The notes: a model not told the origin generated them from the sequence alone. Shown: positions 15,307 through 63,562, counted from the first letter of the stretch. The stretch is DNA of 64,000 nucleotides from a bacterium (GCA_025782575.1 JALGYY010000009.1:99512-163511), one strand, 5' to 3'. Translations and numbers: made by a program.

Positions 15307-15310
15307 TGAC

Positions 15311-15970: not shown

Positions 15971-15980
15971 GAAGGACCGC

Positions 15981-16331: not shown

Positions 16332-16340
16332 GATTATCTC

Positions 16341-18944: not shown

Positions 18945-18957
18945 GGTTTACTCCAGC

Positions 18958-21154: not shown

Positions 21155-21165
21155 GTCGAAATCTC

Positions 21166-22368: not shown

Positions 22369-22379
22369 CTTCTCTCGCT

Positions 22380-27900: not shown

Positions 27901-27973
27901 CGGGCGTATTGGCCAGCTCGTCGAGAGTGCGCCAGTAATCCCGCTCTTGTCTGGAATCGGCTATCGATGACAT
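24953..27973 (-). CDS. actB: Alternative complex III subunit ActB (molybdopterin-oxidoreductase-like domain fused to a 4Fe-4S ferredoxin domain, Tat signal)
   Basis: Twin-arginine signal [20 protein letters not shown]. Large MopB-like domain, then a C-terminal 4x[4Fe-4S] region ([11 protein letters not shown]..., [37 protein letters not shown]). Confidence 0.85.
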
Positions 27974-28629: not shown

Positions 28630-29037
28630 ACTATTCAGGGAATCTCTATCCGGCCGGGCTATGCGCACACGGCGCCACCGGAGATACCTGCGATGCAGAC
28701 CACAGTCCTCCGCTATCAGCGGTGACTGCGGTTCACCGGCAGTAGGATCCCACCCGTGCCAGTAGGGGCACAGGCTTAGCCTAAGACTGAGATTCCGGGT
28801 CTCTGCTCCCAAGTGCCTCCGGGAAGTGGCACGTGAAAATGTAGTCAGACACTCTGCTTATGATTCAGTTCCAGAAAGCTGATTCTATCGGCGGGTTTCT
28901 CAATGTTCAAGAAATTCTCTCAGAAAAATTCCATAAAGCGGACAGGGCGGGGGATCATCACTTTTGGAGAAGACTTGGAAACGTGGGCGGAGTCGACGTA
29001 GAGTTTGGGAGAGAGGCGAAAAGGGGCAAGAACCAGT

Positions 29038-34061: not shown

Positions 34062-35569
34062 CGAGGACCTCTTTCAACACGAACCGTGACGAGAATCTCA
34101 TCCGGTTCGGGAGGGGGAACGTCCCGTTCCGGAAACGACACACGAATTTTCTTTCCGGGGCGCGTCAGTTCGCACCACGCCTTCACAGTATACGTCGTCA
34201 TTCCCGCGGCGATGTGAATAGGCGAACCGGGTCTGGGGCGGACGCCGAAGGGAAGGCCGTAAACGACGATCGTTTCGCCCGGGTCGGCGTTATCGATCTC
34301 CCTGCTCAGGTCGGCAGTGAATTGTTCGGTCAGTCTGGTGAGGTCACCCCATTCGGAGCGGAACTGAAAGAGAGGCGAACCCTTTCCGTTCAGCCAGAAC
34401 GATCCCGCCAGAAGCAGGACCAGCACCGATGCGACCCCCTTTCTGATCACCGAAGCGCCCTGGAAGGCGACGACCGATTCCAGTATCAGAACGCCAGCCA
34501 GTAACGAGTACGGCGCGACAGTGTGAAGGGTATACCAGGGGGAAATCGATCCCGAGAATCCATGAATCGACCACCCGCAGATCATCCAGAAGAACGCGAG
34601 CATGGCGAGGCGTCCGGATCTCCTGCCCCACAGGAGTTGAATCGAGCCAAGGGACAGTATCGCGAGAATCGCCCACCGGACGATCGGGCCCGGCACGAGG
34701 GGCGCAAAAATCGGATAGGGGTAAAACGTGGCACGCTGAAACTCCCGCAGAATGCGCATGGCGAATGCCGCCGCGGCAAATGGCGTCACCCCATGATCTT
34801 CCATCGGTCCGCTCACGCCCATATGGCCGCCGAGCCCGCCGATCACTGCCTGACGGGCGGCCAGAAACGGAAGAAGCATCAGAAACGAGGGAAGAGAAGC
34901 GCGGAACGCCCGTGTGATCCGCTTGCCCGGAGTGTCTGGCTCAACGATCAGCAAAGAGAAAAACAGAAGGAACGGAGCGATGGCGCCCGTCTCCTTTGAG
35001 CCGACGGCGAGGAGTGTGAAGATCGGCGGCGCGATTCGTCTCCATGCTGCCGAGTTCGATCGAGCGGCCAGCAGTACGGCGATGGTGAAGAAGAGCGCCA
35101 GCATATCGGCCCGCCTCGGGGGTACGGGGGCGATATTCAGATGAACGGGGTGGACCAGGAAGAATAGCCCGACAAAGAGTGCGGTCAAGAGCGTGAGCAT
35201 GTGCCTGCCGCTGACCGACGCGGCCGATCGGAACAACATGGCCATGCCGATGGCGCAGCCGGCGAGGAGAAGCAGGTCAGTGAGGTGGTATCCGAATGGG
35301 CGCAAATCCCAGAGAGCGTAGTCGATCGCGATCGAGAGATTGAGTACGGGGCGATAAAAGTGGCCGCTCGGGTACCGGCCGTCCATCAGTTCCTCGGTAA
35401 AAGTACCGGCGAAGTCAGCCACGCTCTCGATCCGACTGGCGATGATGATCGGATAGGAATCGTGGCCCAGTTGAGAATAGTCCAGGAATTCATGATAGAG
35501 GAGGAAGACCGCAGAGAGAAGGAGCGCGGCGAGAATGACCTTGCCGGACCGATCTCCTGCAACTCTCAT
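34058..35569 (-). CDS. GT-C fold membrane glycosyltransferase-like protein (PMT/TMTC-like N-terminal domain, no TPR tail)
   Basis: About 11 TM helices. Conserved first-loop motifs (HDSYPIIIASR...; RPFGYHLTDLLLL) resemble PMT/TMTC-type GT-C enzymes. Confidence 0.5.
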   Translation of the reverse strand: MRVAGDRSGKVILAALLLSAVFLLYHEFLDYSQLGHDSYPIIIASRIESVADFAGTFTEELMDGRYPSGHFYRPVLNLSIAIDYALWDLRPFGYHLTDLLLLAGCAIGMAMLFRSAASVSGRHMLTLLTALFVGLFFLVHPVHLNIAPVPPRRADMLALFFTIAVLLAARSNSAAWRRIAPPIFTLLAVGSKETGAIAPFLLFFSLLIVEPDTPGKRITRAFRASLPSFLMLLPFLAARQAVIGGLGGHMGVSGPMEDHGVTPFAAAAFAMRILREFQRATFYPYPIFAPLVPGPIVRWAILAILSLGSIQLLWGRRSGRLAMLAFFWMICGWSIHGFSGSISPWYTLHTVAPYSLLAGVLILESVVAFQGASVIRKGVASVLVLLLAGSFWLNGKGSPLFQFRSEWGDLTRLTEQFTADLSREIDNADPGETIVVYGLPFGVRPRPGSPIHIAAGMTTYTVKAWCELTRPGKKIRVSFPERDVPPPEPDEILVTVRVERGPR

Positions 35570-50991: not shown

Positions 50992-52161
50992 TTACGCGTA
51001 TTGGACCAGATATCTACGAGCGATTTCCGCGAGCAATTGTACACCGAGAGGGAGGGCGGCTTCATCCAAATCGAATCGTGGCGAGTGGTGGGGATGAACG
51101 TGGCCCTGCCGTTCGTTCCGGGCGCCGACGAAGAAAAAACAACCCGGCACGTGAACAAGGTACTCTCCAAAGTCTTCTGCCGCCATATTCCTGAATTCAA
51201 CGACATTCTCCGCCCCTACGGCCTCAGTCGCCACCTCGCGGACAAGGGCGGTCATCTCGGGATCGTTAATCAGAGGCCGGGCGCTCCGATCGAAAGTCGC
51301 CTTGGCGTTGCAGCCGAACGCGGCGGCTGTCTGCTCGGCAATGCGGGAGACCTGCTCGGGTAACTCGTCCCACACCTCCTCGCTGAAGCTTCTCGCCGTA
51401 CCTTTCAGCATGACCTCGCCCGGAATCACGTTGAACGCGTCACCTCCGTGAATACTGCCGACGGTGATCACGACGGAATCGAGAGGGTCCACGAGGCGCG
51501 CCGCGATCTGCTGAAGAGCGGTCACGATATGGGCCGCCGCCAGTACCGGGTCTCTCCCTTCCTGCGGTCTCGCGCCGTGACATCCCTTGCCTGTAACAAG
51601 AATTTCGAATTCGTCAGCCGCCGCCATGAATGGCCCGGGAGCGACGCCGATTTTGCCGGTATCGAGCACGCTCCAGAGATGCAGCCCGAACGCGGCATCG
51701 ACAACCGGATCCCGGAGTACACCCTCGGCGATCATCTTCTTCGCACCGTCCGCAATCTCTTCCGCCGGCTGAAAGAGAAAGAGGATCGAGCCTTTTTCAG
51801 GGGGCTCGAGGCGTTTCAGAACACGGGCCGTGGTGAGCGCGATCGCCGTATGTCCGTCATGACCGCAGGCGTGCATCTTCCCGTCCACAGTACTCCTGTA
51901 GGGAACATCGTTCAGTTCATGCACGGGAAGAGCATCCATGTCCGCTCTTAGAAGGACTCTCTTGCCCGGCTTCCTGCCGTCGAGCAGAGCAGTTACTCCC
52001 GTCCCGCCGATTCCGGTTCGGGGGGTGAGTCCGATCGAGCGGAGTCGGTCGGCCACCAGGCCGGAAGTGCGCACCTCTTCGAACGCGATCTCCGGATGTC
52101 GGTGAAGATCCCGCCTGGTCGCTATCAGTTCTTCCTGTTCGTCGTCACTCAGTCGGATCAT
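50992..52161 (-). CDS. M20 family amidohydrolase (M20D, hippurate hydrolase / N-acyl-amino-acid amidohydrolase-like)
   Basis: LHRHPEIAFEE...HACGHDGHTA... metal-binding motifs of the M20D subfamily. Start placed at MIRLSDDEQ. Confidence 0.8.
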   Translation of the reverse strand: MIRLSDDEQEELIATRRDLHRHPEIAFEEVRTSGLVADRLRSIGLTPRTGIGGTGVTALLDGRKPGKRVLLRADMDALPVHELNDVPYRSTVDGKMHACGHDGHTAIALTTARVLKRLEPPEKGSILFLFQPAEEIADGAKKMIAEGVLRDPVVDAAFGLHLWSVLDTGKIGVAPGPFMAAADEFEILVTGKGCHGARPQEGRDPVLAAAHIVTALQQIAARLVDPLDSVVITVGSIHGGDAFNVIPGEVMLKGTARSFSEEVWDELPEQVSRIAEQTAAAFGCNAKATFDRSARPLINDPEMTALVREVATEAVGAENVVEFRNMAAEDFGEYLVHVPGCFFFVGARNERQGHVHPHHSPRFDLDEAALPLGVQLLAEIARRYLVQYA

Positions 52162-52183
52162 GTCAAGATCGCTTTCCCGGGTC

Positions 52184-52846
52184 TCAGATGATCGTTGGAT
52201 GAACCTCGGACGCCCCGGCGTATTGCTCGAGAAGCCGCGAAAAAAGTCCATTCGCTTCTTGCATTTCTGTTTCTGTAACTGTCGTACGGGATCCATAAAT
52301 TACTGCCAGAACAGCAGCCGTTGTCTCGTCGGTTTTGGAGAGCATGGAATCTTTTACCGGATTGGCAAGCGCCTCTCCCGAGACCCGGGCGAGGCAGACG
52401 AGACCGGTCAGGTCGATCTCCTGGCCGGAGGGATTGAAGACGTACGATTCCTTTTCTCCACCCAGCCGGATGGTCAGCCCGTCCGTTTCCATGAGTGCGC
52501 GGTCGAGATCGACAATCGAAATAGGGAGGCCGGTTTCAAGTGAGACCAAATTATTGATTTCCACAATGTTGTTGATAATCGGGAATCCCCCCTTGGCGGC
52601 ACATGCGGCCAGGTATTCGTTGGCCGGTTTATTCCTGCCGCTCGGTTTGAAGCCGCCGACCCGGAGCATGTCGCGGATCGCTTTTCGGAATTCCGGTGAG
52701 AGGGGATCTGTGCGCCGGCGATCGATCGATCGGTTCAGCTCGTCCAGAAGGCCCTGGGGAGACGGGCCCACTTGAATCCCGTTCGCTTCGATGATGCCGG
52801 CGAAGAAATCGGTGTTATCGATATGGCGCTGGACTACGGTATTCAC
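52184..52846 (-). CDS. B3/4 domain protein (PheT-like tRNA-binding B3/4 fold)
   Basis: 220 aa; layout and the conserved central region (PINNIVEINNLVSLETGLPI) resemble stand-alone B3/4 domain proteins. Assignment from memory. Confidence 0.45.
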   Translation of the reverse strand: MNTVVQRHIDNTDFFAGIIEANGIQVGPSPQGLLDELNRSIDRRRTDPLSPEFRKAIRDMLRVGGFKPSGRNKPANEYLAACAAKGGFPIINNIVEINNLVSLETGLPISIVDLDRALMETDGLTIRLGGEKESYVFNPSGQEIDLTGLVCLARVSGEALANPVKDSMLSKTDETTAAVLAVIYGSRTTVTETEMQEANGLFSRLLEQYAGASEVHPTII

Positions 52847-52859: not shown

Positions 52860-53858
52860 CTACCGTGTCTGCTCGAGGATCTGTTCGATCAGAGCGGTTC
52901 CCTCATCATCGTTTGGAATGATTTCGGGTTTCTGCAGACGCCGGAGCGTTTCCCGCCATGTAGAATCAACGGCAAACAGTTCGGCGAAGATGGGAATCGA
53001 CTCTTTCGCGCCGCCGCTGGTCGCCAGCGTTACCGCATGCCAGAACATCACCTCCGGGTTTCCCGGAATCAGGCGGGTCGCTTCTTTATAATGATCGCGG
53101 GCCTTTTTGAAGTCCCCGGTCTCGAGCGCCAAATCTCCCCGATTCATCTCTTCGTAACCTCTGTGAATGGTGAGAAGTCGACGGAGTTCGACGATCGGTG
53201 TGGGATGATCCTCGATCCGGAGTTCGAGTACGCGATCGACCCACGGCTTCCCCGTATTCCGGGGGGCCACGATCAGCATGGCGGCGGATTGTTTGCCACG
53301 AATGTCGCCCCCTTCACGCTGGGCGGCTTCGAGAGCGGCCATCATTCTTTCAGCCAGATCCCCGTCGGATTCTTCAAATGCCGCGGCCATTGCCGGAACG
53401 ATCCGGTCATTGGCCATCAGATTGGCCTGCACGCTATATCCGTCGCCCGTAATGTGGCTGGCTGATTCGATACACTTTGCCCCGGTGTGGGCGGCGACAT
53501 TCCCATTGTTATCGATGAAGGCGACCTGGCGAACGGCTGCCCCTTCGTCCGCTGTGAGAAGCGCATGGAGAGCCTCGCCTGCATCGAGGCCGGAACGCAT
53601 AAGATCGAGGCCCCGCGGGCCATAGGCTGGATTGGCCAGGGATTGTGTGGCGACGGCGCCTACACCCGGCTCGGCCCAGGTGACGACGGATCCGACGCTG
53701 AACCAGTGGGATTGAACGGCCACACCGAGGAGGCCGGTCTCCGGATCCCGCGAGACGATCGAGTAGGTGTGGATCGGCCTGATGGAGTGCTGCGGAGGAG
53801 CGCCGGCGCGAGCCGGGATCGCACTCAGAAGGATCGCCGTCAATATGAGGTAGCGCAT
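52860..53858 (-). CDS. DUF1028 family protein (Ntn-hydrolase-like) with C-terminal helical repeats
   Basis: Signal peptide then TYSIVSRDPETGLLGVAVQSHWFSVGS, characteristic of DUF1028. TPR-like C-terminus. Confidence 0.65.
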   Translation of the reverse strand: MRYLILTAILLSAIPARAGAPPQHSIRPIHTYSIVSRDPETGLLGVAVQSHWFSVGSVVTWAEPGVGAVATQSLANPAYGPRGLDLMRSGLDAGEALHALLTADEGAAVRQVAFIDNNGNVAAHTGAKCIESASHITGDGYSVQANLMANDRIVPAMAAAFEESDGDLAERMMAALEAAQREGGDIRGKQSAAMLIVAPRNTGKPWVDRVLELRIEDHPTPIVELRRLLTIHRGYEEMNRGDLALETGDFKKARDHYKEATRLIPGNPEVMFWHAVTLATSGGAKESIPIFAELFAVDSTWRETLRRLQKPEIIPNDDEGTALIEQILEQTR

Positions 53859-53988
53859 AATGGACTCCGGAAGTGGATCGCCGAGGGTTCCGAAGCCCCG
53901 ATCTTAGACCCCGCGCGGGGCGGGATCAAGAAAAGCTCGAGCGGGCGGCCAGGCGGGCCACCCGCTCGAATGGATCAGTTTTTCCACG

Positions 53989-56900
53989 TCACCGAATGAG
54001 CATCATCTTCTTCGTTGCGGCGAATCCGCTCGCCTGCATGCGCACGAAGTAAAGTCCTGATGCGACACTCCGCCCCTGGCTGTCGTGCCCCTGCCAGTTC
54101 ACATCCAGGTATCCGGCATCTCGTTCGTCATCGATGAGAGTTTTGACAAGGCGGCCGGCCAGATCGTAGATCGAAATATTGATATGTGACCGTTCGGGTA
54201 GACCGAATCGGATCGATGTGGTCGGGTTGAACGGGTTCGGCACGTTGCCGTAAAGCAGGAACGCAGCGGGAACCGCCTCTGCTTCATCCACTCCGGTCGG
54301 GTCGCCCGACTCCAGGAACTGATAGAAAGCATCAGCCACAAAGCCGGTCAGTTCCTGCACAGTTCCGCTCGGCCACGAAATCCGGATCGAATCAACCACT
54401 GTCGCCGATCCGAGCCCGAATTCGGCTGTAAGCGAGTTCTGCGACCCATAGCCTGAGCCGCCGGTGATTTCACGGATCTGGGCGAGGCCGCCTGCAACGA
54501 TACGAACCCGGGCGCCGATAGCCGAACGGTTGGACGGCGATCCCACCAGATTGACGTGAACCCAGTGATTGCCTGTTACGGCCTCGTTACGGAAGAGCCT
54601 TTTCGTAGCCGCGCTCGTCGCGATGTAGAGATCGAGATCGCCGTCGCTGTCGATGTCCGCCCAGGCCGCGCCGAGTCCGTTTCCTGCGTTAACGAGCGAG
54701 TCATCGGTCGCATCAGAAAAGAGACCGCCTCCTTCATTTCGGAAGAGTTTGTTCGATCCCGACTGATTGAGATAGAGATCGAGGTCCCCGTCATTGTCGT
54801 AGTCGGCCCAGGCGATTCCCCGGCCGCCCCCAATATCGGCGAGTAGGAGGGGAGTCACGTCGGCGAACACTCCGCCGCCGTCATTCCGGAACAACTTATT
54901 GGCGGCGCTCTCGTTCGAAACGTAGAGATCGAGATCGCCATCGTTATCGTAGTCAGCCCAAGCGACGCCATATGCCGAGCCGGCGTCTCCGAGAGGACCA
55001 GCCGTTATGTCGGTGAACGTTCCGCCGCCTTGATTCTCCAGCAGTTGATTGGGGCTGAACGCGTTCCCCACGTAGAGATCGAGATCACCGTCGTTATCGT
55101 GGTCGCCCCACGCACCTGAGAAGGAGAAACCAAGGCTGCTGAGCGGCCCGCTCGTGATGTCTGTGAATCCGCCGGCGCCGTCATTGTCGAGCAGTTTGTT
55201 GAACGATCCCGCGTTCGTAATATAGAGATCGAGATCACCGTCGTTGTCATGGTCCCCCCAGGCGCCCGAAAAACCGAAGCCGGCGTCGTTAAGGACCGCA
55301 GAGACTATATCAGCGAATACTCCTCCCCCGTCATTCCGGAAGAGTTTGTTCGCGGTCCCCGAGTTGACGAGATAGAGATCGAGGTCGCCGTCATTGTCGT
55401 AGTCACCCCACGCGCTCTGTACGCCATCGCCGGCATCGTTGAGAGGCGGCGCCGATACATCCGCGAATGTCGCCCCGTCGTCATTCCGAAACAGCTTGTT
55501 GGCCCCGAACGAGAGGCTGACGTAGAGGTCCTCGTCGCCATCGCCGTCATAGTCGCCCCAGGAAACGCCCTGAACGGTTCCCGCGTGAATGAGTCCGCTG
55601 GCGGTCACATCCGCCCAGTCAGGCACAGGCTCCGTGATCGTGAGCGCCGTATCGACAGTGATCGCGGTCAGGAGCGACAGTTGCCCCGAAGGCCAGAAGA
55701 CCTGGAGCGTGTCGATCAGAGTCGACGCCCCGAGCCCGAAGTCGGCCGGGAGGGAGTTCTGGGAGAGGTAACCGGAACCGCCGGAAATGTCTCGAATCTG
55801 TGCGATCCCGCCGGCCACGGCTCTCACACGCGCGCCGATTCCTGCTTTGTTCGAGATGACTCCGGCCGTCTTCACGCGAAGCCAGTGATTCCCCGAAGTC
55901 TGGTCGTTTCGGAAGAGTTTGTTGGCACCGAGATTGGCGACGAATAGATCGAGATCACCGTCACCGTCGCTGTCGCCCCAGATCACGCTCTGGCTGTTAC
56001 CGGCGTCACTCGTTTCGAAGTTTGCCGCGTCAACAAAAATCCCGCCGTCATTGCGGAAAAGGCGGTTAAAGTATTTGCCGGCCACGTAGAGATCGAGGTC
56101 ACCATCCAGATCGTAATCGCCCCATGCCGCTCCGTAGCTTTCACCATCCACGTCGACCGGCGACGCTGATACTTCGGTGAATGATCCTCCGCTGTTCCGG
56201 AAGAGCTGGTTCGGCCCGATGTTGGTGACGTAGGCGTCGAGGTCGCCGTCATTGTCGTAATCACCCCATGCGACGCCTCTCCCCGTGCCGTTGTCCGAAG
56301 CACCAAGCCCGCCTCCGAGTTCCGTGAAGGTGCCGTTCGAATTGTTGCGGAATATCTTGTTGCTCCCCTCGTTCACCAGATAAATGTCCTGGTCACCGTC
56401 GTTGTCGTAGTCGACCCATACGGTCGCCCAACTGGGGCCACTGTTGGCGACCGTGCCCGGTGTGATATCGATCAGCGTTCCCGAGTCGTTTCTGAGGAGA
56501 CGATTCGACTCGTTGTAATTCGTGATGTAGAGGTCGACATCGCCGTCGTTGTCGTAGTCGCCGAATGCGGCCGCGCGGCCGGCGCCCGGATGACCCGCAC
56601 CGCCGGAGGTCCCGTCGATAAATGTGCCTCCCCCTTGATTTTCAAAGAGTTTATTGGCTCCGTCATTGGCGAGGTAGAGGTCGAGATCGCCGTCGTTGTC
56701 TACATCGGCCCACGCCGTCCCGTAACTGATCGAAGCGTCGTCCAGGGGGGCGGCCGTAACATCGGAATAGCCGGCCGGACTGTTTTGGAGCAGCTGATTC
56801 GCTCCATCGCTGTTCGTGATATAGAGATCGGCATCGCCGTCTCCGTCGAAATCGGCCCAGGCGGCTCCCCGTGCCATACCCGTATGACCGACCGCCGCAC

Positions 56901-59900
56901 TTGTGGCGTCGTGAATCAATGTGGACGGCGCGAACGGGGGAGCGATATCGAAGAACGCATCACTCTGATCGATCACAGCGCCTGCGGAATTGAAAAGCGT
57001 CACACGCACGAGTGCTTCCCGGCTTGGAAGGTTGGGGACGACCCAGGCCAGGCTTCCTCCACCGCCGCCGGCGAGGCTGTCGGCGAGCAATGTCCACGTC
57101 ATTCCGCTGTCACCGCTCGACTCCACCGTATGGGCGACAGCCGAGCCTCCGCCGTTGGTCCATGTGATATTCACATTGCTGCCGATCTCGAGTGATTCGC
57201 CTCCGTTCGGCGATGTCACCGCCGTGATCGGGGCGGCTGTGATCGCGAAAGTCGCATCGCTCGTATCCCGGTCACTTCCCGCTGCGTTGGAGAGGAGGAC
57301 GCGAACCCGGCCCTGGGTGGTCTCATCGTTCGGTACCGTCCAGTCAAATCCGCCCAGCTGCCCGCTTGATCCGGAGGCGACCGGATTCCACGAAGAGCCG
57401 TTGTCGGTGGAATACTCGAGTGTGTAGTCAGAACCCACAGCGGATGTGCTCGTCCAGGTGATTTCTCTTACCGTTCCGACTCCCCAGTCTTCACCGCCGT
57501 CAGGAGAGAGGATGAGGGCGACCGGCGCAATGAACGACTCCGTAATCGTTACGAGTGTGTCCGCCGCGAGCGCGGTTACGATCTGATCGATTCCTGATGG
57601 CCAGCTCACGATCAGCGTGTCCACGGTCGTCGTCTGGCCGATCCCGATCTCCGCTCGAAGCGAGCCCTGGCTTCGGCCGTTGCCAGCCGTTATCTCACGG
57701 ATAAAGGATTTGCCCCCGGCCACGGCTCGAATGCGGGCGCCCACACCATGGGAGTTCGACACCGTTCCCGCCAGATCGACCTGGATATAGTGATCGCACT
57801 CCGCAGAGAGAGGGGTTGTCCGAAGCAGCACATTGCCACTCCCGTCATTGCCGAGATAGAGATCCATGAGGCCGTCACCGTCATAATCGGCCCAGGCCGC
57901 CGCGGCATGGTCGTTTCCGGCGTCCGTCTGGAGAGTGTCGGTCAGTTCGTGAAATTTCGCTTTGTAGTTGAAGAAAAACAGATTATCGTCAGGCGAGGCA
58001 TTCCCCACGAAGAGGTCGATGTGGCCGTCGTTGTTATAGTCCGCCCATGAAACGGTAACCGCGTCGGATGCATCTCCGAGCAATCCGCCCGTTACATCCG
58101 CGAACGTCCCCCCGCCGTCATTCCGGAAGAGTTTGTTCGCGCCGTTGTTCCCTACATAAAGATCGAGGTCGCCGTCGTTGTCGATATCCGCCCAGGCGGC
58201 CGACCGGCTCACTACGGACGCTTCCCCGATCGAAGCGGGGGTAACGTCGGTGAACGATCCGGCACCGTTGTTTTCGAAGAGCTTATTTCCCGCCGCGACA
58301 GAACGGGCGAGGTAGAGATCCATGTCGCCGTCGTCGTCGAAATCACCCCAGGCGATGCCGGCGCCGTCAGTTGTGGTGGCGAACGCACCGCTCGCGACAT
58401 CGGTGAACGATCCGGTCCCGTCATTCTCGAACAGGCTGCTTCCCGAAGAGGTCACGATATGGAGATCGAGATCGCCGTCATTGTCCTTGTCGAGCCATTC
58501 CACGGCCACGCCGTCACCGGCGTTGCCGATCCCGGCCGGTGTGATGTCGGCGAACACGCCGCCGCCGTCGTTCCGGAGAAGAAGATTGGCCGAGCCTGTA
58601 TTTGTGATTACGAGATCGAGATCACCATCGTCGTCGAAATCTCCCCAGGCGGCTCCTGATCCGGCACCCGCGTTCCCGAGATCACCGGAAGTCACATCGA
58701 CGAACGTTCCGGCCTGATTCTCGAGGAGTGCGTTGGCGCCGTTATTCAGCAGGAAGAGATCGGCATCGCCGTCGCCGTCGTAGTCGCCCCAGGCGACACC
58801 CGTCGCGCTGCCCGCATCAGCAAGCGGACCGCTGGTCGAATCGGCGATCCCGGTAATACCGAATGCGTTTCGAATATTCAGGAAACCATAGCCGTATTTC
58901 GGATCGAACCCCGCAACGCCGCGGTCACGGGCGGAGCATTGGAGTCGCGCTTCCACTTCGGCGGCAGAGAGAGTCGGGTCGAGCGAGAAAAGTAGAGCCG
59001 CCACGCCGGCGGAGTAGGGCGAAGAAAAGCTCGTTCCACTCACGGACGCATAGTCTCCCGGTGCGACGCCGGCGGATCCGACACGGTCCGTCGTATAGAC
59101 GGAGACACCAGGTGCGGCAAAGGCGAGGCTGTCACCCCAGCTGCTGAACGAAGCCAGATTTCCGTCCCGGCCGACGGCCGAAATCGAGTTCACCTTGCTA
59201 TGGGAAGAGGGGTATCCGAGAACGGCGACAGCATTGTTTCCCGCGCTTGCGAAACTGACGATGCCGTTCGCATAGGCATTGTCGTATGCATCGTCGATCG
59301 TGCTGTTCGGGCTTCCGAGCGACCAGCTCAGATTTGTCACTTTTGCGCCCTGCTGCCGGGCCCAGTTGAGTGCGTTGGCCACCCAGATTGACTGGCATTG
59401 CCCGGTTCCGTCACAAGGGACCGTGGATACACAGATCCGACCTCCGGCGACTCGGCAGCCCGGGGCGATTCCGACCGTACCGAGGGAGTTGTTGATCGTC
59501 GCCGACACGCAGCCCGCTACGGTCGTTCCATGTGTGTCACACATGTTGAAAGGGTTGCCGCCTCCTCCTTCACCCGTAAAGTCCTCTCCGGCGATCTGAT
59601 GGAGGTCGGGATGAACCTGATCGACGCCGTCGTCGAATACGGCGACGATGATAGTGGAGTCTCCCGTGGTGAGATCCCACGCCCGGACACCACCCATATC
59701 CATGCCCGGCGTACCGCCGGACTGACCTGTGTTATGGATGCCCCACACCAGATTGAATCCAGTGTCGTTCGGAATGAGCGATCTCCTCGATTCCATCTGG
59801 AAGTCCGGTTCGGCCCAGGAAATACGGGAGTCCGCGGCGAGCCGGTTCGCAAGTGCGAGTACATCGAAACCGTTCTGTGAGGCAATGCTGGAACGAAGCC

Positions 59901-60432
59901 GATAAGCTCCGTCCAGTCCGGCAAAATCGGTTTCCAGAATCTGGATGGTGGGTTCGAGTTCGAACAGGATCTCTTCGGCGCGATATCGAGAAGCGGGATC
60001 GAACCTTACGAGAATTTCGGGGGTCACGGCGAGCCATCCGAAGAAGTGGCCGCGAAAGACCGGAGAGACGAACTCGAACTGGTCCGATGCGACGAGGATA
60101 TTGATCATCCGGTCTGCATCACTTGCATCTACAGCTTCTGATTCCAGAAAGAGAAACTGGGAACTGGGCATAGGAGCGCTCTTCATTGACATGGCGGGGA
60201 TACCCGCAATATTCAGACTACCGAGCAGGCGCTTCCGGCCGACTTCTTCCGTAATCGCTTCTTTCGGCGTCACGGCGAATCGGGAGCCGTCTAGCTCGAG
60301 CTGCAGTGCTTCCCCTTTGTAGTAATAGAATGTTGGCGGTGATTCCGCGTGAACCAGGGCCGGTCCGGACGGGAGTGCTGAAAGAGTAATAGAGAATGCG
60401 AGCGTGCAGACAATCGAGCGCAATCGGATCAT
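53989..60432 (-). CDS. Giant secreted multidomain protein: subtilisin-like S8 peptidase + about 25-30 FG-GAP/VCBS beta-propeller repeats + three UnbV/ASPIC domains + T9SS C-terminal sorting domain
   Basis: Start MIRLRSIVCTLAFSITLSALPSGPALVHA (signal peptide) preceded by CAGGAGG. S8 catalytic triad motifs (DDGVDQVHPDL; HGTTVAGC; GTSFSSPY). Repeats of the form WGDYDNDGDLDLY..N.G.NKLFRN. UnbV_ASPIC blocks such as HWLRVKTAGVISNKAGIGARVRAVAGG..IRDISGGSGY. C-terminal Por_Secre_tail-like 90 aa (NVPNPFNPTTSIRFGL...IYDLAGRLVKTL...GLYFVRMQASGF...KMMLIR). Confidence 0.85.
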   Translation of the reverse strand: MIRLRSIVCTLAFSITLSALPSGPALVHAESPPTFYYYKGEALQLELDGSRFAVTPKEAITEEVGRKRLLGSLNIAGIPAMSMKSAPMPSSQFLFLESEAVDASDADRMINILVASDQFEFVSPVFRGHFFGWLAVTPEILVRFDPASRYRAEEILFELEPTIQILETDFAGLDGAYRLRSSIASQNGFDVLALANRLAADSRISWAEPDFQMESRRSLIPNDTGFNLVWGIHNTGQSGGTPGMDMGGVRAWDLTTGDSTIIVAVFDDGVDQVHPDLHQIAGEDFTGEGGGGNPFNMCDTHGTTVAGCVSATINNSLGTVGIAPGCRVAGGRICVSTVPCDGTGQCQSIWVANALNWARQQGAKVTNLSWSLGSPNSTIDDAYDNAYANGIVSFASAGNNAVAVLGYPSSHSKVNSISAVGRDGNLASFSSWGDSLAFAAPGVSVYTTDRVGSAGVAPGDYASVSGTSFSSPYSAGVAALLFSLDPTLSAAEVEARLQCSARDRGVAGFDPKYGYGFLNIRNAFGITGIADSTSGPLADAGSATGVAWGDYDGDGDADLFLLNNGANALLENQAGTFVDVTSGDLGNAGAGSGAAWGDFDDDGDLDLVITNTGSANLLLRNDGGGVFADITPAGIGNAGDGVAVEWLDKDNDGDLDLHIVTSSGSSLFENDGTGSFTDVASGAFATTTDGAGIAWGDFDDDGDMDLYLARSVAAGNKLFENNGAGSFTDVTPASIGEASVVSRSAAWADIDNDGDLDLYVGNNGANKLFRNDGGGTFADVTGGLLGDASDAVTVSWADYNNDGHIDLFVGNASPDDNLFFFNYKAKFHELTDTLQTDAGNDHAAAAWADYDGDGLMDLYLGNDGSGNVLLRTTPLSAECDHYIQVDLAGTVSNSHGVGARIRAVAGGKSFIREITAGNGRSQGSLRAEIGIGQTTTVDTLIVSWPSGIDQIVTALAADTLVTITESFIAPVALILSPDGGEDWGVGTVREITWTSTSAVGSDYTLEYSTDNGSSWNPVASGSSGQLGGFDWTVPNDETTQGRVRVLLSNAAGSDRDTSDATFAITAAPITAVTSPNGGESLEIGSNVNITWTNGGGSAVAHTVESSGDSGMTWTLLADSLAGGGGGSLAWVVPNLPSREALVRVTLFNSAGAVIDQSDAFFDIAPPFAPSTLIHDATSAAVGHTGMARGAAWADFDGDGDADLYITNSDGANQLLQNSPAGYSDVTAAPLDDASISYGTAWADVDNDGDLDLYLANDGANKLFENQGGGTFIDGTSGGAGHPGAGRAAAFGDYDNDGDVDLYITNYNESNRLLRNDSGTLIDITPGTVANSGPSWATVWVDYDNDGDQDIYLVNEGSNKIFRNNSNGTFTELGGGLGASDNGTGRGVAWGDYDNDGDLDAYVTNIGPNQLFRNSGGSFTEVSASPVDVDGESYGAAWGDYDLDGDLDLYVAGKYFNRLFRNDGGIFVDAANFETSDAGNSQSVIWGDSDGDGDLDLFVANLGANKLFRNDQTSGNHWLRVKTAGVISNKAGIGARVRAVAGGIAQIRDISGGSGYLSQNSLPADFGLGASTLIDTLQVFWPSGQLSLLTAITVDTALTITEPVPDWADVTASGLIHAGTVQGVSWGDYDGDGDEDLYVSLSFGANKLFRNDDGATFADVSAPPLNDAGDGVQSAWGDYDNDGDLDLYLVNSGTANKLFRNDGGGVFADIVSAVLNDAGFGFSGAWGDHDNDGDLDLYITNAGSFNKLLDNDGAGGFTDITSGPLSSLGFSFSGAWGDHDNDGDLDLYVGNAFSPNQLLENQGGGTFTDITAGPLGDAGSAYGVAWADYDNDGDLDLYVSNESAANKLFRNDGGGVFADVTPLLLADIGGGRGIAWADYDNDGDLDLYLNQSGSNKLFRNEGGGLFSDATDDSLVNAGNGLGAAWADIDSDGDLDLYIATSAATKRLFRNEAVTGNHWVHVNLVGSPSNRSAIGARVRIVAGGLAQIREITGGSGYGSQNSLTAEFGLGSATVVDSIRISWPSGTVQELTGFVADAFYQFLESGDPTGVDEAEAVPAAFLLYGNVPNPFNPTTSIRFGLPERSHINISIYDLAGRLVKTLIDDERDAGYLDVNWQGHDSQGRSVASGLYFVRMQASGFAATKKMMLIR

Positions 60433-60659
60433 CGAGAGCCTCCTGATAGAAATACGACACAGCCGGAGCTGATCCGGCCTATCCGGTTCAAACTTGTTGA
60501 GAGGGGAACAAGGGAGATCCAAGTCGTTAACTTGATGAGAATTATAACATTCCAACCCGGCCGGAATCAAGTCGGATCGTCAGAGGGGTACTCGCGGTGG
60601 CCAGAATAGCGAGCTTGGAACAAAATTCGACATTTTCCACTATCTGACGAGGGGATCCG

Positions 60660-62195
60660 TCAATAGACGGGCATCTCCTGATCGACATCCTCTGCCCATG
60701 CCAGCAGACCGCCTTCCAGGTTTTTGACCTTCTTGAACCCCTGGTGAGCGAGATACATGGCCACCTGGGCGCTCCGGGCTCCGATTCGACACTGGCAGAC
60801 AATTTCCTTGTTGTGATCGATCTCGGCCAGTCGCGCGGGAATTTCGTTCATCGGAATGAGAACGGCTCCGGGTAACGAGCAGATCTGTACTTCATGGGGC
60901 TCTCGTACATCCAGAATGACAAATGAGTCGTCGCCGGCGTCCATTCGCTCTTTGAGCTGAACCGCTGTAATGTCTCCGGGCATGATGAACTCGCTGGTTT
61001 CATCGGCCTCCACCGATTCCTCCTGCTGTGCGAACCGCTTGCCCAGTTGCTCTTCCACCATCTTGTAGACTTCCCGGTTGGTATCCTCATCGGTTTGCGC
61101 ACCCGGAAGACCGCAGAACTCTTCATAGTCAATGAGTTCCCGTATGCTCGGATTGTCTCCGCAGATCGGGCAGTCCTTGTTGCGCCTCAGTTTGAGCTCT
61201 CGAAACTTCATACTGAGAGCATCGTAGAGCATGAGCCGACCCGAAAGAGTCTCTCCGATCCCCATCAGGATCTTGACAACCTCGGTCGCCTGGATCACTC
61301 CGATCAAGCCGGGCAGGATTCCCAGGACCCCCCCTTCCGCACAGGAAGGGACGAGTCCGGGGGGAGGCGGCTCCGGATAAAGGCACCGGTAGCACGGGCC
61401 GCCTTCATAGTGAAAGACAGAAGCCTGGCCTTCGAATCGAAAGATGCTCCCGTATACGTTCGGCTTGTTCAGCAGAACGCAGGCGTCGTTCACGAGATAG
61501 CGAGTGGGGAAGTTGTCCGTTCCATCGGCGACAACGTCATAGTCCCTGAAGATTTCGAGCGCATTGCCTGAATCGAGCCTGACTTCGTATGTCTTGATTT
61601 CCACATGAGGGTTTAGGTCGTTCAAACGATTTCTTGCCGACTCCAGCTTGGGCCGGTCCACGGTGCTCGTGCCATGCAGAATCTGACGCTGCAGATTCGA
61701 ATAGTCCACCACATCAAAATCGACGAGACCGATGCGCCCCACACCAGCGGCCGCCAGGTAGAGCGCCATCGGCGAGCCGAGTCCTCCCGCCCCGATGAGA
61801 AGCACACTCGCCCCCTTCAGCTTCTTCTGCCCCTCCATGGTCACTTCAGGCATGATGAGATGTCGGCTGTACCGTTGGATCTCCTCGTTGGAGAGCGTGA
61901 TTTCCGCTCCGCTGCCTCCGGCGATCGATGGAATGATGCTGATCTCATCACCATCTTTGACCGGGGTCTCCTCGTTATCGAGGTGCCGGATATCGTCGTC
62001 ATTGACGTAGACGTTCACAAAGTTCCGGAGGGTCCCCTCGCCCGAGTAGAGGTGCCGCTTCAGATCGGGGTGGGCGCTCGTAAGACCGGCGAGCAGTTCC
62101 CCTACCGTTCGGCCGTCGAGCAAGACTCGGGGCTCGCCTCCGGTATAATTCCTGAGCGGTGTGGGAATGTGGATGATTATGGGCACGGGGGTCAC
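60660..62195 (-). CDS. moeZ: Sulfur-carrier (ThiS/MoaD/CysO-like ubiquitin-fold, ending GG) fused to MoeZ-type E1 adenylyltransferase with C-terminal rhodanese domain
   Basis: N-terminal beta-grasp domain of about 95 aa ending ...GDEISIIPSIAGG, then directly LSNEEIQRYSRHLIMPEVTMEGQKKLKGASVLLIGAGGLGSP (ThiF/MoeB Rossmann). CxxC...CPIC zinc motif. C-terminal rhodanese with active Cys (CQCRIGARS). GTG start overlaps the JAMM stop (GTGA). Confidence 0.8.
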   Translation of the reverse strand: MTPVPIIIHIPTPLRNYTGGEPRVLLDGRTVGELLAGLTSAHPDLKRHLYSGEGTLRNFVNVYVNDDDIRHLDNEETPVKDGDEISIIPSIAGGSGAEITLSNEEIQRYSRHLIMPEVTMEGQKKLKGASVLLIGAGGLGSPMALYLAAAGVGRIGLVDFDVVDYSNLQRQILHGTSTVDRPKLESARNRLNDLNPHVEIKTYEVRLDSGNALEIFRDYDVVADGTDNFPTRYLVNDACVLLNKPNVYGSIFRFEGQASVFHYEGGPCYRCLYPEPPPPGLVPSCAEGGVLGILPGLIGVIQATEVVKILMGIGETLSGRLMLYDALSMKFRELKLRRNKDCPICGDNPSIRELIDYEEFCGLPGAQTDEDTNREVYKMVEEQLGKRFAQQEESVEADETSEFIMPGDITAVQLKERMDAGDDSFVILDVREPHEVQICSLPGAVLIPMNEIPARLAEIDHNKEIVCQCRIGARSAQVAMYLAHQGFKKVKNLEGGLLAWAEDVDQEMPVY

Positions 62196-62626
62196 TCCTC
62201 TCTTTCTCGTATCTGAATCAATTCACTGTCGAAGCCGGTTCGATCTTCACGCAGGAGCCAGGAGAGGGGGGTGGCCGGCTCGCCGCTCCGCACCTCAACA
62301 ATAATATAGGAATAAAAAGGCCAGGCATGTTCCCTGTCGAACTCGGACGGCTCTCCCGGGTGGTCGGGATGGGAATGGTATACGCCGACGATCTCCTTTG
62401 ATTCACGACGAGCACGCTTTTCGCTCTCGAGAACGGCCTCGGGGGCGATGAGATACCGGCGCCTCTGAGCCTGCCCTTCGCGCTCGTTCTCGACAGGCCA
62501 GAGATCCGTAATCCACTTGCTCTCTTCGTCGGCTCTCCCCACGAGGAATCCGCAGCATTCATGGGGATAGGTCTTTCGCCCATGCTCCCGAATCGACTCG
62601 AGCTGCTCCCTTGAAAGTCTGATCAT
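62192..62626 (-). CDS. JAMM/MPN+ metalloprotease (Mec+-like)
   Basis: E...HSHPDHPGEPSEFD: the JAMM motif ExnHxHx7Sx2D. 144 aa, tightly packed between cysM and moeZ. Confidence 0.8.
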   Translation of the reverse strand: MIRLSREQLESIREHGRKTYPHECCGFLVGRADEESKWITDLWPVENEREGQAQRRRYLIAPEAVLESEKRARRESKEIVGVYHSHPDHPGEPSEFDREHAWPFYSYIIVEVRSGEPATPLSWLLREDRTGFDSELIQIREREE

Positions 62627-63562
62627 CTAGCTCTCATCCCAGAATGACTCACTCAGGTAACGCTCTCCCCCATCACAAAGTATGGTGACTACCGTCCCCT
62701 CCGTGATTCTTCGTGCCACCTGAATTGCCGCCACGATATTCGCTCCGGATGATACGCCGACAAGGACGCCCGCCTCCCGCGCAAATCGCCTTACCATGGC
62801 CTGGGCCTCTTCCGTTTCGATTTCGATATTTTCGTCGGCAAAAGACGGGTCGTAGATGGGCGGTACTAGAACGGACTCCATATGCTTGAGGCCTTCGAGG
62901 CCATGCCAGGGAGAATCAGGCTGGACGCTGGAGAGGCGGATATCCGGGACGAGCTCTCGAAGCCTCCGGCCTGTTCCCATGAACGTTCCGGTTGTCCCGA
63001 GGCCGGCAACAAAATGAGTGACGGCGCCGTTCGTCTGCTCATGAATCTCGGGAGCGGTCGTCTTGTAATGGGCGCCCCAGTTGTCCGGGTTGCTGTACTG
63101 ATCAGGGTAGAACCATTGTCCCGGTGCTTCCTCATAGAGGGCGCGTGCTTTGTAGATGGCGCCGTCGATCCCCTCGCCCGGATCGGTAAGAATGAGATGG
63201 GCGCCATAAGCGAGCAGTGTTGACCGGCGCTCCCTGTTGGCGTTCGCGGGCAGGCAGAGAGTGACATCATATCCGCGGGATGAGCCGATCATCGCCAGCG
63301 CAATACCCGTGTTTCCGGACGTTGCTTCCAGAATCTTTCCCCCCGGTTTCAAACGCCCCCCGTTCTCCGCTGTCAGGATCATGTTGAGAGCGGCGCGATC
63401 CTTGACGGAACCGCCGGGGTTGGCAAACTCCGCTTTTCCGAACAGACTGACCCCTGGGGGGATTTCGTCGGCCACAGCTTCGAGTGAAAGGAGGGGGGTG
63501 TTTCCGATCAGGTCGATCAGACCCTGATTGTATCTGTCCATCGCCGGCTCAGAAGTTGACAC
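62627..63562 (-). CDS. cysM: Cysteine synthase (CysM/CysK family; probably carrier-thiocarboxylate-dependent CysM type)
   Basis: PLP-fold motifs (GNTPLL...NPGGSVKDRAA...ATSGNTGIALA). Start may instead be the downstream ATG at 63541. Confidence 0.85.
   Translation of the reverse strand: MSTSEPAMDRYNQGLIDLIGNTPLLSLEAVADEIPPGVSLFGKAEFANPGGSVKDRAALNMILTAENGGRLKPGGKILEATSGNTGIALAMIGSSRGYDVTLCLPANANRERRSTLLAYGAHLILTDPGEGIDGAIYKARALYEEAPGQWFYPDQYSNPDNWGAHYKTTAPEIHEQTNGAVTHFVAGLGTTGTFMGTGRRLRELVPDIRLSSVQPDSPWHGLEGLKHMESVLVPPIYDPSFADENIEIETEEAQAMVRRFAREAGVLVGVSSGANIVAAIQVARRITEGTVVTILCDGGERYLSESFWDES

What the first reader, a model, noticed from the sequence alone, without database searches (positions are those of the whole stretch)
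53989..60432. 2148-aa S8 protease / FG-GAP propeller / triple ASPIC-UnbV fusion carrying a T9SS sorting tail
Single ORF with a strong RBS and signal peptide. A subtilisin-like catalytic domain (D, H, S motifs present) is followed by dozens of calcium-binding FG-GAP-like repeats (DxDxDGxxD loops) interrupted three times by UnbV/ASPIC modules. It ends in a canonical Por/T9SS C-terminal domain. ASPIC/CRTAC1-like proteins are poorly understood in bacteria. Fusion to an active-looking protease and export by T9SS suggests a large cell-surface degradative or adhesive enzyme. The T9SS tail also constrains the taxonomy of this high-GC organism to the FCB superphylum or relatives.
Basis: partly seen in the sequence, partly recalled or inferred. 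Interest (0 to 1): 0.5.

Follow-up and report, generated by a model that had tools for sequence, protein, structure and literature searches.

The report
Giant secreted protease with three propellers
This is one intact gene for a very large secreted protein-cutting enzyme carrying three calcium-binding, CRTAC1-like propeller modules and an export tag; the combination is rare, but every part is a common, known type, so it is a fairly ordinary find.

Summary
A single minus-strand ORF (53989-60432) encodes 2147 aa. It has an AGGAGG ribosome-binding site, its own promoter-like site and a strong terminator hairpin.

The domain order is: signal peptide, a ~185-aa pro-region, a subtilisin (S8) domain, three CRTAC1-like units, then a C-terminal sorting domain. 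The S8 domain has all four catalytic residues aligned to subtilisin. Each unit is seven FG-GAP blades plus an UnbV_ASPIC sandwich, giving 21 of 21 DxDxDGxxD calcium loops. Two Ig-like domains follow unit 1. The C-terminal domain passes the curated T9SS type A cut-off.

Five full-length orthologs (48-58% identity, same architecture) come from Candidatus Eisenbacteria MAGs. A predicted unit matches the CRTAC1 crystal structure 9ETN (TM 0.71).

Each part is common. Thousands of single unit-plus-tail proteins exist, multi-unit arrays reach 7000 aa, and the pro-region+S8 cassette occurs across many phyla with other passengers. Only the S8/CRTAC1 fusion is rare.

The most likely function is a secreted zymogen protease tethered to, or aimed at, a substrate by calcium-dependent binding propellers. 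I could not check for T9SS machinery: none lies in the 64 kb, and the rest of the genome was unreachable. This is a new variant of a known kind, of low interest.

The parts
60541..60570 (-). Promoter-like site: TTGATT, 18-nt spacer, TG-extended TATAAT, about 110 nt upstream of the ATG
   Evidence: 10 of 12 consensus matches. This is a consensus match only, and FCB-type promoters may differ.
60439..60444 (-). Ribosome-binding site AGGAGG, 6 nt before the ATG at 60432
   Evidence: read directly from the sequence.
60346..60432 (-). Signal peptide, residues 1-29 (MIRLR, hydrophobic core, VHA|ES)
   Evidence: judged by eye from the sequence. No lipobox. No predictor was run.
59794..60345 (-). N-terminal pro-region, residues 30-213: a small alpha/beta domain followed by a beta-alpha-beta-beta-alpha-beta (I9-like) prodomain
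   Evidence: AF2 secondary structure. The region is conserved end to end in more than 60 homologs. No Pfam family hit. A faint match to the PC1 prodomain, E 0.62.
59716..59793 (-). Flexible linker, residues 214-239; the presumed autoprocessing site. It ends in the conserved mature N-terminus motif IPNDxxF..WG..NTGQ
   Evidence: pLDDT below 50 at model residues 187-212. The motif aligns to the first residues of the deseasin MCP-01 (3VV3) and mirolase (8EHE) chains.
58843..59715 (-). Subtilisin-like S8 catalytic domain, residues 240-530. Catalytic residues: D267 (nt 59632-59634), H301 (59530-59532), N399 (59236-59238), S468 (59029-59031)
   Evidence: Pfam 135.7 bits. Subtilisin NAT E 3e-34 with the tetrad aligned. 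Foldseek target-normalised TM 0.86-0.89, rmsd 2.0 A. The four residues are invariant in 21 of 21 and 6 of 6 aligned sequences.
57799..58842 (-). Propeller 1, residues 531-878: seven FG-GAP blades with calcium loops at 550, 598, 648, 697, 749, 798 and 849
57538..57798 (-). UnbV_ASPIC beta-sandwich 1, residues 879-965
   Evidence: (three ASPIC stretches).
56908..57537 (-). Two Ig-like spacer domains, residues 966-1175, weakly Kre9_KNH-like
   Evidence: Pfam 21 bits, below the 24.6 cut-off. Conserved in the orthologs.
55888..56907 (-). Propeller 2, residues 1176-1515: seven blades with calcium loops at 1194-1487
55627..55887 (-). UnbV_ASPIC beta-sandwich 2, residues 1516-1602
54571..55626 (-). 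Propeller 3, residues 1603-1954: seven blades with calcium loops at 1627-1926
   Evidence: The AF2 model shows seven four-stranded blades, pTM 0.84.
54310..54570 (-). UnbV_ASPIC beta-sandwich 3, residues 1955-2041
   Evidence: Pfam best stretch 1971-2037. Searches give the match to CRTAC1 9ETN.
53992..54246 (-). C-terminal sorting domain, residues 2063-2147 (T9SS type A / FlgD_ig-like Ig sandwich), preceded by a 21-aa linker
   Evidence: TIGR04183 30.3 bits against a cut-off of 23. FlgD_ig 38.8 against 27. PF18962 25.6 against 27. Orthologs score 33-40 bits. The model shows a beta-sandwich.
53936..53970 (-). Intrinsic-terminator-like hairpin (15 pairs, 11 of them G-C) followed by a T-rich tail, starting 19 nt after the stop codon

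Best explanation
The gene is a stand-alone (monocistronic) gene for a secreted, calcium-dependent, multi-domain subtilase.

Proposed course of events:
1. Sec export via the N-terminal signal peptide. This is inferred from the sequence.
2. Folding as a zymogen. The ~185-aa N-terminal pro-region, which includes an I9-like beta-alpha-beta-beta-alpha-beta domain, chaperones and inhibits the S8 domain. It is then removed by autocleavage in the disordered linker at residues 214-239. This is inferred from the predicted structure and from what is established for subtilisins.
3. Translocation across the outer membrane, directed by the C-terminal type A sorting domain through a type IX secretion system. 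The protein would then be either anchored to the surface or released. Family membership of the tail is shown; the machinery is not.
4. Outside the cell, the S8 domain cleaves proteins. Its catalytic tetrad is intact and conserved. The three CRTAC1-like units (21 calcium-loaded FG-GAP blades plus three ASPIC sandwiches), spaced by two Ig-like domains, act as a long multivalent binding arm. This arm would hold the enzyme on a polymeric substrate such as glycoprotein, cell wall or detrital matrix. The binding role is inferred from integrin and fungal-lectin propellers of the same fold.

The likely physiological role is extracellular protein degradation for nutrition in a heterotrophic Eisenbacteria-like bacterium.
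For: Gene structure:
- A single intact ORF with an RBS, a promoter-like site and a terminator.
- G+C content is the same as the surroundings.

Protease part:
- The S8 domain is well above the family cut-off.
- D267, H301, N399 and S468 align to subtilisin D32, H64, N155 and S221.
- These residues are invariant in 21 cassette homologs and all 6 orthologs.
- The modelled fold superposes on subtilisins at target-normalised TM 0.86-0.89, rmsd 2 A.
- The pro-region has a beta-alpha-beta-beta-alpha-beta topology followed by a disordered linker. Pro-subtilisin E (3WHI) aligns over 402 columns.

Binding part:
- 21 of 21 blades carry DxDxDGxxD, a recognised calcium-binding motif (PMC3123361).
- The unit model has seven blades plus a sandwich (pLDDT 82.8, pTM 0.84).
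- Its best structural match is CRTAC1 9ETN (E 6e-31, TM 0.71), followed by integrin alpha and fungal GlcNAc lectins.

Sorting tail:
- It passes the TIGR04183 cut-off in this protein and in five orthologs.
- The type A CTD is defined as PF18962/TIGR04183 (PMC10202324).
- T9SS and its CTDs are reported as FCB-specific (PMC12398890).

Conservation:
- The whole architecture is kept at 45-66% identity, evenly across domains, in five orthologs.
- The triplication predates their divergence.
Against: - No T9SS component is encoded in the 64-kb window. The rest of the genome could not be examined.
- The tail is below Pfam's own PF18962 cut-off (25.6 against 27).
- By sequence, the tail is closer to FlgD Ig domains (E 1e-3) than to the one T9SS CTD that the solved-structure search returned (PorU, E 1.1).
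- No Pfam Inhibitor_I9 hit for the pro-region.
- No ligand is known for any bacterial CRTAC1-like module.
- The neighbourhood is not conserved among orthologs, so context gives no functional clue.
- The AF2 models rest on shallow alignments (15-21 sequences).
- Nothing here is experimental.
Confidence: 0.65

Rival explanations
1. It is primarily a surface adhesin or structural matrix protein. The propeller array is the functional part, and the S8 domain serves only for self-maturation, shedding or turnover of the protein itself.
For: About three quarters of the mass is binding-type repeats. Thousands of related proteins consist of the CRTAC1 unit plus tail with no enzyme at all, and arrays of 2-6 units are common. 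The vertebrate relative CRTAC1 is a non-enzymatic extracellular matrix protein (for the match; the matrix role is from my own knowledge).
Against: The pro-region+S8 cassette is a widespread module fused to many different passengers, as expected for a protease with targeting domains. Its active site is conserved as strictly as in free subtilisins.
Confidence: 0.15
2. The C-terminal domain is not a T9SS signal in this lineage. It is a FlgD-like Ig domain with another role, such as cell-surface attachment or a different export route. The protein would reach the outside by another pathway or stay periplasmic.
For: Pfam FlgD_ig scores higher (38.8) than Por_Secre_tail (25.6, below cut-off). The best PDB sequence matches are FlgD. 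No T9SS genes lie in the window. No paper found links Eisenbacteria to T9SS.
Against: TIGR04183 is passed over nearly its full length (model positions 3-70 of 72) in all six orthologs. The tails also hit the CTDs of curated T9SS proteins: PorU, PorZ, and the T9SS-dependent M6 and M36 peptidases. The domain sits at the extreme C-terminus. It ends with G-x-Y-F-V-R and a K-K-x-x-L-I-R tail, which I recall as typical of type A CTDs. The same tail is on 59 of 146 related representatives, as expected for a sorting tag.
Confidence: 0.15
3. It is an antagonistic or predatory effector. The lectin-like propellers dock on the envelope of other microbes and the protease damages their surface proteins.
For: The fold resembles GlcNAc-binding fungal lectins and a Burkholderia lectin. 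The size and multivalency would suit binding to cell surfaces.
Against: No immunity gene, toxin domain or conserved partner lies next to it in any of the loci I examined. Nothing distinguishes this reading from nutritional proteolysis.
Confidence: 0.05
4. It is an artefact: a chimeric gene created by misassembly, or a fused gene call across several genes.
For: The source is probably a metagenome-assembled genome. Repeated units invite misassembly.
Against: One uninterrupted frame of 2147 codons. Five independent orthologs of 2124-2139 aa from different assemblies share the same domain order. The units are only 43-51% identical to each other, so they are not collapsible repeats.
Confidence: 0.01

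Closest known systems
CRTAC1 / ASPIC (cartilage acidic protein 1; murine crystal structure PDB 9ETN)
   Same: Each of the three units has the same build: an FG-GAP calcium-binding beta-propeller followed by an UnbV_ASPIC beta-sandwich. Sequence E 3e-25. Foldseek E 6e-31, TM 0.71/0.69 over 503 columns, 25% identity.
   Different: The vertebrate protein has a single unit, no protease, and a C-terminal EGF-like domain (from my own knowledge). No EGF family was hit here. Here there are three units in tandem, every blade carries a canonical calcium loop, and the array is fused to S8 and a bacterial sorting tail.
Stand-alone bacterial 'CRTAC1 family' / VCBS / FG-GAP-like proteins with an FlgD_ig-type tail (~560-620 aa), and giant tandem arrays of them
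   Same: The unit plus tail is 45-60% identical to unit 3 plus the CTD. At least 7920 such hits have E <= 1e-20. 65 of 146 top representatives have 2-6 ASPIC copies, and 59 carry the same tail.
   Different: Almost none carry a protease. Among the 146 new top representatives none has both S8 and ASPIC. Only this family's own representative, P0003, matches S8 plus a unit end to end. A few short or partial S8+ASPIC proteins exist (P0164, P0204, P0214, P0229, P0233), as does a 1060-aa one-unit paralog at L001 6335-9517.
Multi-domain secreted subtilases sharing the same pro-region+S8 cassette (Zixibacteria, Planctomycetota/Phycisphaerae, Ignavibacteria, Bacteroidota, Verrucomicrobia)
   Same: The first ~515 residues are 40-53% identical and align end to end. 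There are 252 such loci among species-representative genomes.
   Different: Their C-terminal passengers are other modules (FN3, PKD, Chlam_PMP, beta-helix, cadherin-like and others). Some lack the sorting tail altogether.
Mirolase of Tannerella forsythia (PDB 8EHE) and deseasin MCP-01 (PDB 3VV3)
   Same: Both are S8 catalytic domains with significant similarity (E 1e-25 and 2e-26). Both share the motif at the mature N-terminus. From my own knowledge, mirolase is a T9SS-exported subtilase made with a prodomain, and deseasin uses a C-terminal PKD domain to bind collagen. These are the same 'protease plus targeting domain plus export tag' logic.
   Different: Both are small, single-passenger enzymes without FG-GAP or ASPIC modules.

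Membership tests
Peptidase family S8 (subtilases) | Match to the family profile above the curated cut-off | tested here: met
   PF00082, 135.7 bits against 21.8, model positions 2-288 of 288.
Peptidase family S8 (subtilases) | Catalytic Asp-His-Ser in that order, plus the oxyanion-hole Asn, aligned with subtilisin D32/H64/S221/N155 | tested here: met
   D267, H301, S468 and N399. Invariant in 21 of 21 cassette homologs and 6 of 6 orthologs.
Peptidase family S8 (subtilases) | Subtilisin alpha/beta fold | tested here: met
   AF2 model against subtilisins: target-normalised TM 0.86-0.89, rmsd 2.0-2.4 A.
Peptidase family S8 (subtilases) | Proteolytic activity | not testable with these tools
   Needs an enzyme assay.
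Subtilisin propeptide (Inhibitor_I9-like) | Sequence match to the I9 family, or a beta-alpha-beta-beta-alpha-beta fold directly upstream of the catalytic domain | tested here: inconclusive
   No Pfam I9 hit. The predicted topology at residues 132-212 is beta-alpha-beta-beta-alpha-beta. A faint PC1 prodomain match, E 0.62. Pro-subtilisin E aligns over 402 columns but with a poor rmsd.
CRTAC1 / ASPIC-UnbV family | UnbV_ASPIC domain above the cut-off, directly after FG-GAP repeats | tested here: met
   PF07593, 166.3 bits against 23.4, three stretches, each following seven FG-GAP blades.
CRTAC1 / ASPIC-UnbV family | Sequence and fold similarity to a solved CRTAC1 | tested here: met
   9ETN: phmmer E 3.4e-25. 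Foldseek E 6.2e-31, TM 0.71.
CRTAC1 / ASPIC-UnbV family | C-terminal EGF-like calcium-binding domain of the vertebrate protein | tested here: not met
   No EGF family among the Pfam hits. This protein is therefore a bacterial CRTAC1-like module array, not an ortholog of the vertebrate protein.
FG-GAP (integrin-alpha type) calcium-binding propeller | Seven four-stranded blades with Dx[DN]xDG calcium loops | tested here: met
   21 of 21 loops. Seven blades in the model. The motif is described as calcium-binding in PMC3123361. Actual calcium binding was not tested.
T9SS type A cargo | C-terminal domain matching the type A CTD model (TIGR04183 / PF18962) at the very C-terminus | tested here: met
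   TIGR04183 scores 30.3 here and 33-40 in five orthologs, against a cut-off of 23. Caveat: PF18962 scores 25.6, below its cut-off of 27, and FlgD_ig scores higher.
T9SS type A cargo | N-terminal Sec signal peptide | tested here: inconclusive
   The sequence has the n/h/c regions and an AxA-like site. No predictor was available.
T9SS type A cargo | T9SS machinery (GldK/L/M/N, SprA/Sov, PorV, PorU and others) encoded in the same genome | not testable with these tools
   None among ~50 window ORFs. The source contig is not in the look-up index and not among the representative genomes. No literature on Eisenbacteria T9SS was found.

The most novel reading that the evidence does not exclude
The S8/CRTAC1 fusion could be a natural 'Rosetta stone' for the function of CRTAC1-like modules. 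If the three propellers are the substrate-recognition arm of a protease, then bacterial, and perhaps vertebrate, CRTAC1 modules would be calcium-dependent receptors for a specific extracellular polymer such as a glycoprotein or matrix component. This enzyme would then give a tractable way to identify that ligand.
Probability: 0.12. Interest if true: 0.5.

Novelty: new variant of a known kind. Interest (0 to 1): 0.2.

Why it matters
The value is modest. It documents a conserved architecture, restricted to a few lineages, that joins an apparently active subtilase to three CRTAC1-like propellers. The biochemical role of the CRTAC1 family is still unknown in bacteria, although it is extremely abundant in environmental genomes. 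The fusion suggests that these modules act as targeting or binding arms, and it offers a concrete construct for ligand hunting. It also adds a candidate T9SS cargo in a candidate phylum where I found no published description of that secretion system. Neither point overturns current understanding.

Tried and rejected
1. T9SS machinery. I scanned about 50 window ORFs with Pfam or NCBIfam and found none. A CTD HMM built from 30+ homologs found no other cargo in the window. Look-up of the source contig failed. The genome is not a GTDB representative.

2. Literature. Searches for Eisenbacteria with T9SS, and for bacterial CRTAC1 or the CRTAC1 structure paper, returned nothing specific.

3. Conserved neighbourhood. 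The ortholog loci L001 and L002 share no neighbours with the window, so an operon-based inference was rejected.

4. Taxonomy from a housekeeping gene. CoxI is too conserved. Its best named hits are labelled Gemmatimonadetes or Acidobacteria, so this was uninformative and a poor use of the last search.

5. Recent tandem duplication or misassembly. Rejected: the units are 43-51% identical to each other, and each matches its positional counterpart in orthologs best.

6. The longer TTG start at 60570. Rejected for three reasons: no signal peptide would follow it, it overlaps the promoter-like -35 element, and orthologs start at the ATG position.

7. A lipoprotein. Rejected: there is no lipobox.

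8. An RNA element near the HNH ORF, or any RNA gene in the window. None found.

Full report

Yes. The window holds one long ORF on the minus strand, 53989..60570 from the first TTG. Its translation has no internal stop.

The ATG at 60432 is preceded by AGGAGG with a 6-nt spacer. Several points favour this start:
- It is followed by a typical signal sequence: MIRLRSIVCTLAFSITLSALPSGPALVHA|ESPP.
- The 46 extra residues from the upstream TTG have no such features.
- That TTG coincides with the -35 hexamer of a promoter-like site, TTGATT-18-TGnTATAAT.
- Orthologs start at the equivalent position.

The product is therefore 2147 aa. A 15-bp, GC-rich hairpin with a T-rich tail starts 19 nt after the stop. 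The gene thus looks monocistronic. Its G+C (about 0.60) is that of its surroundings.

**2. Domain content**

Pfam gives:
- Peptidase_S8, residues 259-516, 135.7 bits.
- FG-GAP_3, 19 stretches, 492.9 bits.
- UnbV_ASPIC, 3 stretches, 166.3 bits.
- FlgD_ig, residues 2072-2135, 38.8 bits against a cut-off of 27.
- Por_Secre_tail, 25.6 bits, just below its cut-off of 27.

NCBIfam's T9SS type A sorting-domain model TIGR04183 scores 30.3 against a cut-off of 23. The tail also hits the C-termini of PorU, PorZ and T9SS-dependent M6 and M36 peptidases.

A motif scan finds exactly 21 DxDxDGxxD loops spaced about 49 residues apart, in three blocks of seven: 550-849, 1194-1487 and 1627-1926. Each block is followed by an ASPIC module.

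- Residues 966-1175 between unit 1 and unit 2 form two Ig-like domains. The Kre9_KNH match is weak (21 bits, below cut-off).
- A ~185-aa N-terminal pro-region.

**3. The protease**

Against solved structures, the best matches are classical subtilisins (E 3e-34). D267, H301, N399 and S468 align to subtilisin D32, H64, N155 and S221.

In an alignment of 21 homologs of the first ~520 residues, these four positions are invariant. They are also conserved in all six orthologs.

The AF2 model of residues 28-545 has mean pLDDT 80. It shows a small N-terminal alpha/beta domain, then a beta-alpha-beta-beta-alpha-beta domain directly upstream. A disordered linker follows (model 187-212, protein 214-239), and then a catalytic domain. 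That catalytic domain superposes on subtilisins at target-normalised TM 0.86-0.89 and 2.0 A.

The conserved motif after the linker (IPNDxxF..WG..NTGQ.GG) aligns with the first residues of the deseasin MCP-01 and mirolase chains. I therefore read residues 30-213 as a pro-region and the linker as the autoprocessing site. This is an inference; no I9 family hit was obtained.

**4. The propeller units**

The three units are 43-51% identical to each other. Unit 3 matches unit 3 of the orthologs best. The triplication is therefore old and maintained, not a recent repeat or an assembly artefact.

The AF2 model of unit 3 plus the tail has pLDDT 82.8 and pTM 0.84. It shows seven four-stranded blades, a beta-sandwich (ASPIC), and a second sandwich (the tail).

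Structural and sequence matches:
- The best solved-structure match by far is murine CRTAC1, 9ETN: Foldseek E 6e-31, TM 0.71, 503 columns.
- The sequence-level match to 9ETN is E 3.4e-25.
- Next come integrin alpha subunits and the fungal GlcNAc-binding seven-bladed lectins.

**5. Relatives**

The identical protein is already in NCBI, on a 299,905-bp contig and unnamed. Five clusters of full-length orthologs (2124-2139 aa, 48-58% identity, 99-100% coverage) have the same Pfam architecture. The named ones are 'FG-GAP-like' or 'VCBS repeat-containing protein [Candidatus Eisenbacteria bacterium]'. Identity is even across all domains, 45-66%.

Their neighbourhoods differ from the window and from each other. 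Three ortholog loci (L001/L003, L006 and L012) have a neighbouring gene with ASPIC and the same tail. In L001 it is a 1060-aa paralog with S8, FG-GAP, one ASPIC and the tail.

**6. How unusual is it?**

Each part is common:
- A search with unit 3 alone returned at least 7920 proteins at E <= 1e-20.
- The typical hit is a ~560-620-aa protein with seven FG-GAP blades, ASPIC and the FlgD_ig-type tail.
- These hits are named CRTAC1 family, VCBS, FG-GAP-like or 'enediyne biosynthesis protein E4'.
- An exhaustive search of 1.84 billion representatives with S8 plus unit 1 gave 180,301 hits. The top ones are giant arrays up to 7066 aa.
- Of the 146 new top representatives, 65 have 2-6 ASPIC copies and 59 carry the same tail.
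- The pro-region+S8 cassette (40-53% identity, end to end) occurs in 252 loci of species-representative genomes. These span Zixibacteria, Planctomycetota/Phycisphaerae, Ignavibacteria, Bacteroidota, Verrucomicrobia and Eisenbacteria, with quite different C-terminal passengers.

Only the combination is rare:
- Among the 80 loci kept from that scan, only the three Eisenbacteria-type loci have ASPIC units behind the cassette.
- Among the top representatives, only this family's own representative spans S8 plus a unit.
- A handful of shorter or partial S8+ASPIC proteins also exist.

**7. Surroundings**

The window's other genes are housekeeping:
- Upstream: a ThiS-ThiF-rhodanese fusion, a JAB peptidase and a PLP-dependent enzyme.
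- Downstream: DUF1028-TPR, an M20 peptidase, PntA/PntB transhydrogenase and glutamate dehydrogenase.
- Further away: an alternative complex III plus cytochrome oxidase cluster, sensor kinases, phosphoesterases and an O-antigen-ligase-like protein.

No T9SS component was found, and no other protein in the window carries the tail. There are no tRNA or Rfam hits.

**8. The T9SS question**

Family membership of the tail is met by the curated NCBIfam cut-off in all six orthologs (33-40 bits in the other five). The type A CTD is defined by PF18962/TIGR04183 and is a seven-stranded Ig-like sandwich (PMC10202324). T9SS and CTD proteins are described as confined to the FCB superphylum (PMC12398890).

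Three caveats apply:
- The tail is closer in sequence to FlgD Ig domains than to the one T9SS CTD (PorU) that the solved-structure search returned.
- It is just below Pfam's PF18962 threshold.
- The presence of the machinery in this genome could not be tested.

The last caveat has several causes. The contig is not in the look-up index, the genome is not a representative, and no paper on Eisenbacteria T9SS was found.

NCBI taxonomy lists the phylum (Candidatus Eiseniibacteriota) only under 'Bacteria candidate phyla'. Labels of related MAGs are inconsistent. One ortholog contig is called Gemmatimonadetes, and the best named CoxI hit is too. Export by T9SS is therefore a reasonable inference, not a finding.

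**9. Most likely mechanism**

The protein is most likely a Sec-exported zymogen whose pro-region is removed autocatalytically. The C-terminal tag would direct transfer across the outer membrane. Outside the cell it would be a subtilase held on a polymeric substrate by a long arm. That arm has three calcium-stiffened CRTAC1-like propellers and two Ig spacers.

Basis for each element:
- Shown: intact gene, domain order, conserved catalytic residues, seven-blade units, CRTAC1 relationship, tail family membership, conservation in orthologs.
- Inferred: signal-peptide cleavage, prodomain function, T9SS use, calcium binding, ligand binding, nutritional role.

The rivals are an adhesin with a self-processing protease, a tail that is not a T9SS signal, an antagonistic effector, and an artefact. 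They are listed with their tests in the Rival explanations section.

**10. Verdict**

It is a rare domain combination built from very common modules. Orthologs are already in public databases under generic names, and nothing in it is mechanistically surprising. I rate it a new variant of a known kind, with interest about 0.2.

Noticed in passing
window 14374-28812 (minus strand): A respiratory gene cluster. It holds a multihaem cytochrome c (27961-28812) and a 1006-aa molybdopterin/4Fe-4S protein (24953-27973). It also holds an NrfD-like membrane subunit (23563-24972) and ActD (23021-23563), so it is an alternative complex III. Next come cytochrome oxidase subunits II (with a fused cytochrome c; 18958-20031), I (17253-18944) and III (15311-16072). 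Several interleaved ORFs have no family hit (21166-22473, 20046-20954, 16395-17312, 14374-15306).
   Followed up: partly
window 9005-10210 (+): A 401-aa ORF whose only hits are an HNH nuclease motif (Pfam E 8e-5) and a faint match to the HNH part of RNA-guided endonuclease IscB (22.7 bits against a cut-off of 175). A 495-bp gap lies upstream. The Rfam scan found no HEARO/omega-RNA or any other RNA there.
   Followed up: partly
window 60660-63562 (minus strand), directly upstream of the finding: A three-domain ThiS-ThiF-rhodanese fusion (511 aa), then a JAB/MPN peptidase (144 aa) and a PLP-dependent (CysM/CysK-like) enzyme (311 aa). This arrangement resembles a protein-thiocarboxylate sulfur-carrier pathway, with the carrier fused to its activating enzyme.
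   Followed up: no
window 52860-53858 (minus strand), directly downstream: A DUF1028 protein with a C-terminal TPR extension, followed by an M20 peptidase (50992-52296), PntA/PntB transhydrogenase and glutamate dehydrogenase. The theme is loosely peptide and amino-acid catabolism, but it is not conserved next to the orthologs.
   Followed up: partly
L001 6335-9517 (minus strand); also L006 ~6900-7472 and L012 ~9903-10475: In three ortholog loci a neighbouring gene carries ASPIC plus the same C-terminal tail. In L001 it is a 1060-aa paralog with S8, FG-GAP, one ASPIC and the tail. The fusion therefore exists in one-unit and three-unit forms that sit side by side.
   Followed up: partly
loci L003-L082: The ~515-aa 'pro-region+S8' cassette is a mobile module. 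It is found in 252 loci of representative genomes across FCB-type and PVC phyla, each time with a different C-terminal passenger. In Planctomycetota it occurs where no T9SS-type tail was detected.
   Followed up: partly
window 12360-14276 (+) and 34058-35569 (-): Two sizeable ORFs (638 and 503 aa) have no significant family. The first has only marginal hits (phage tail-fibre and TonB-receptor fragments). The second has a faint Agl23-like flippase-associated match.
   Followed up: no
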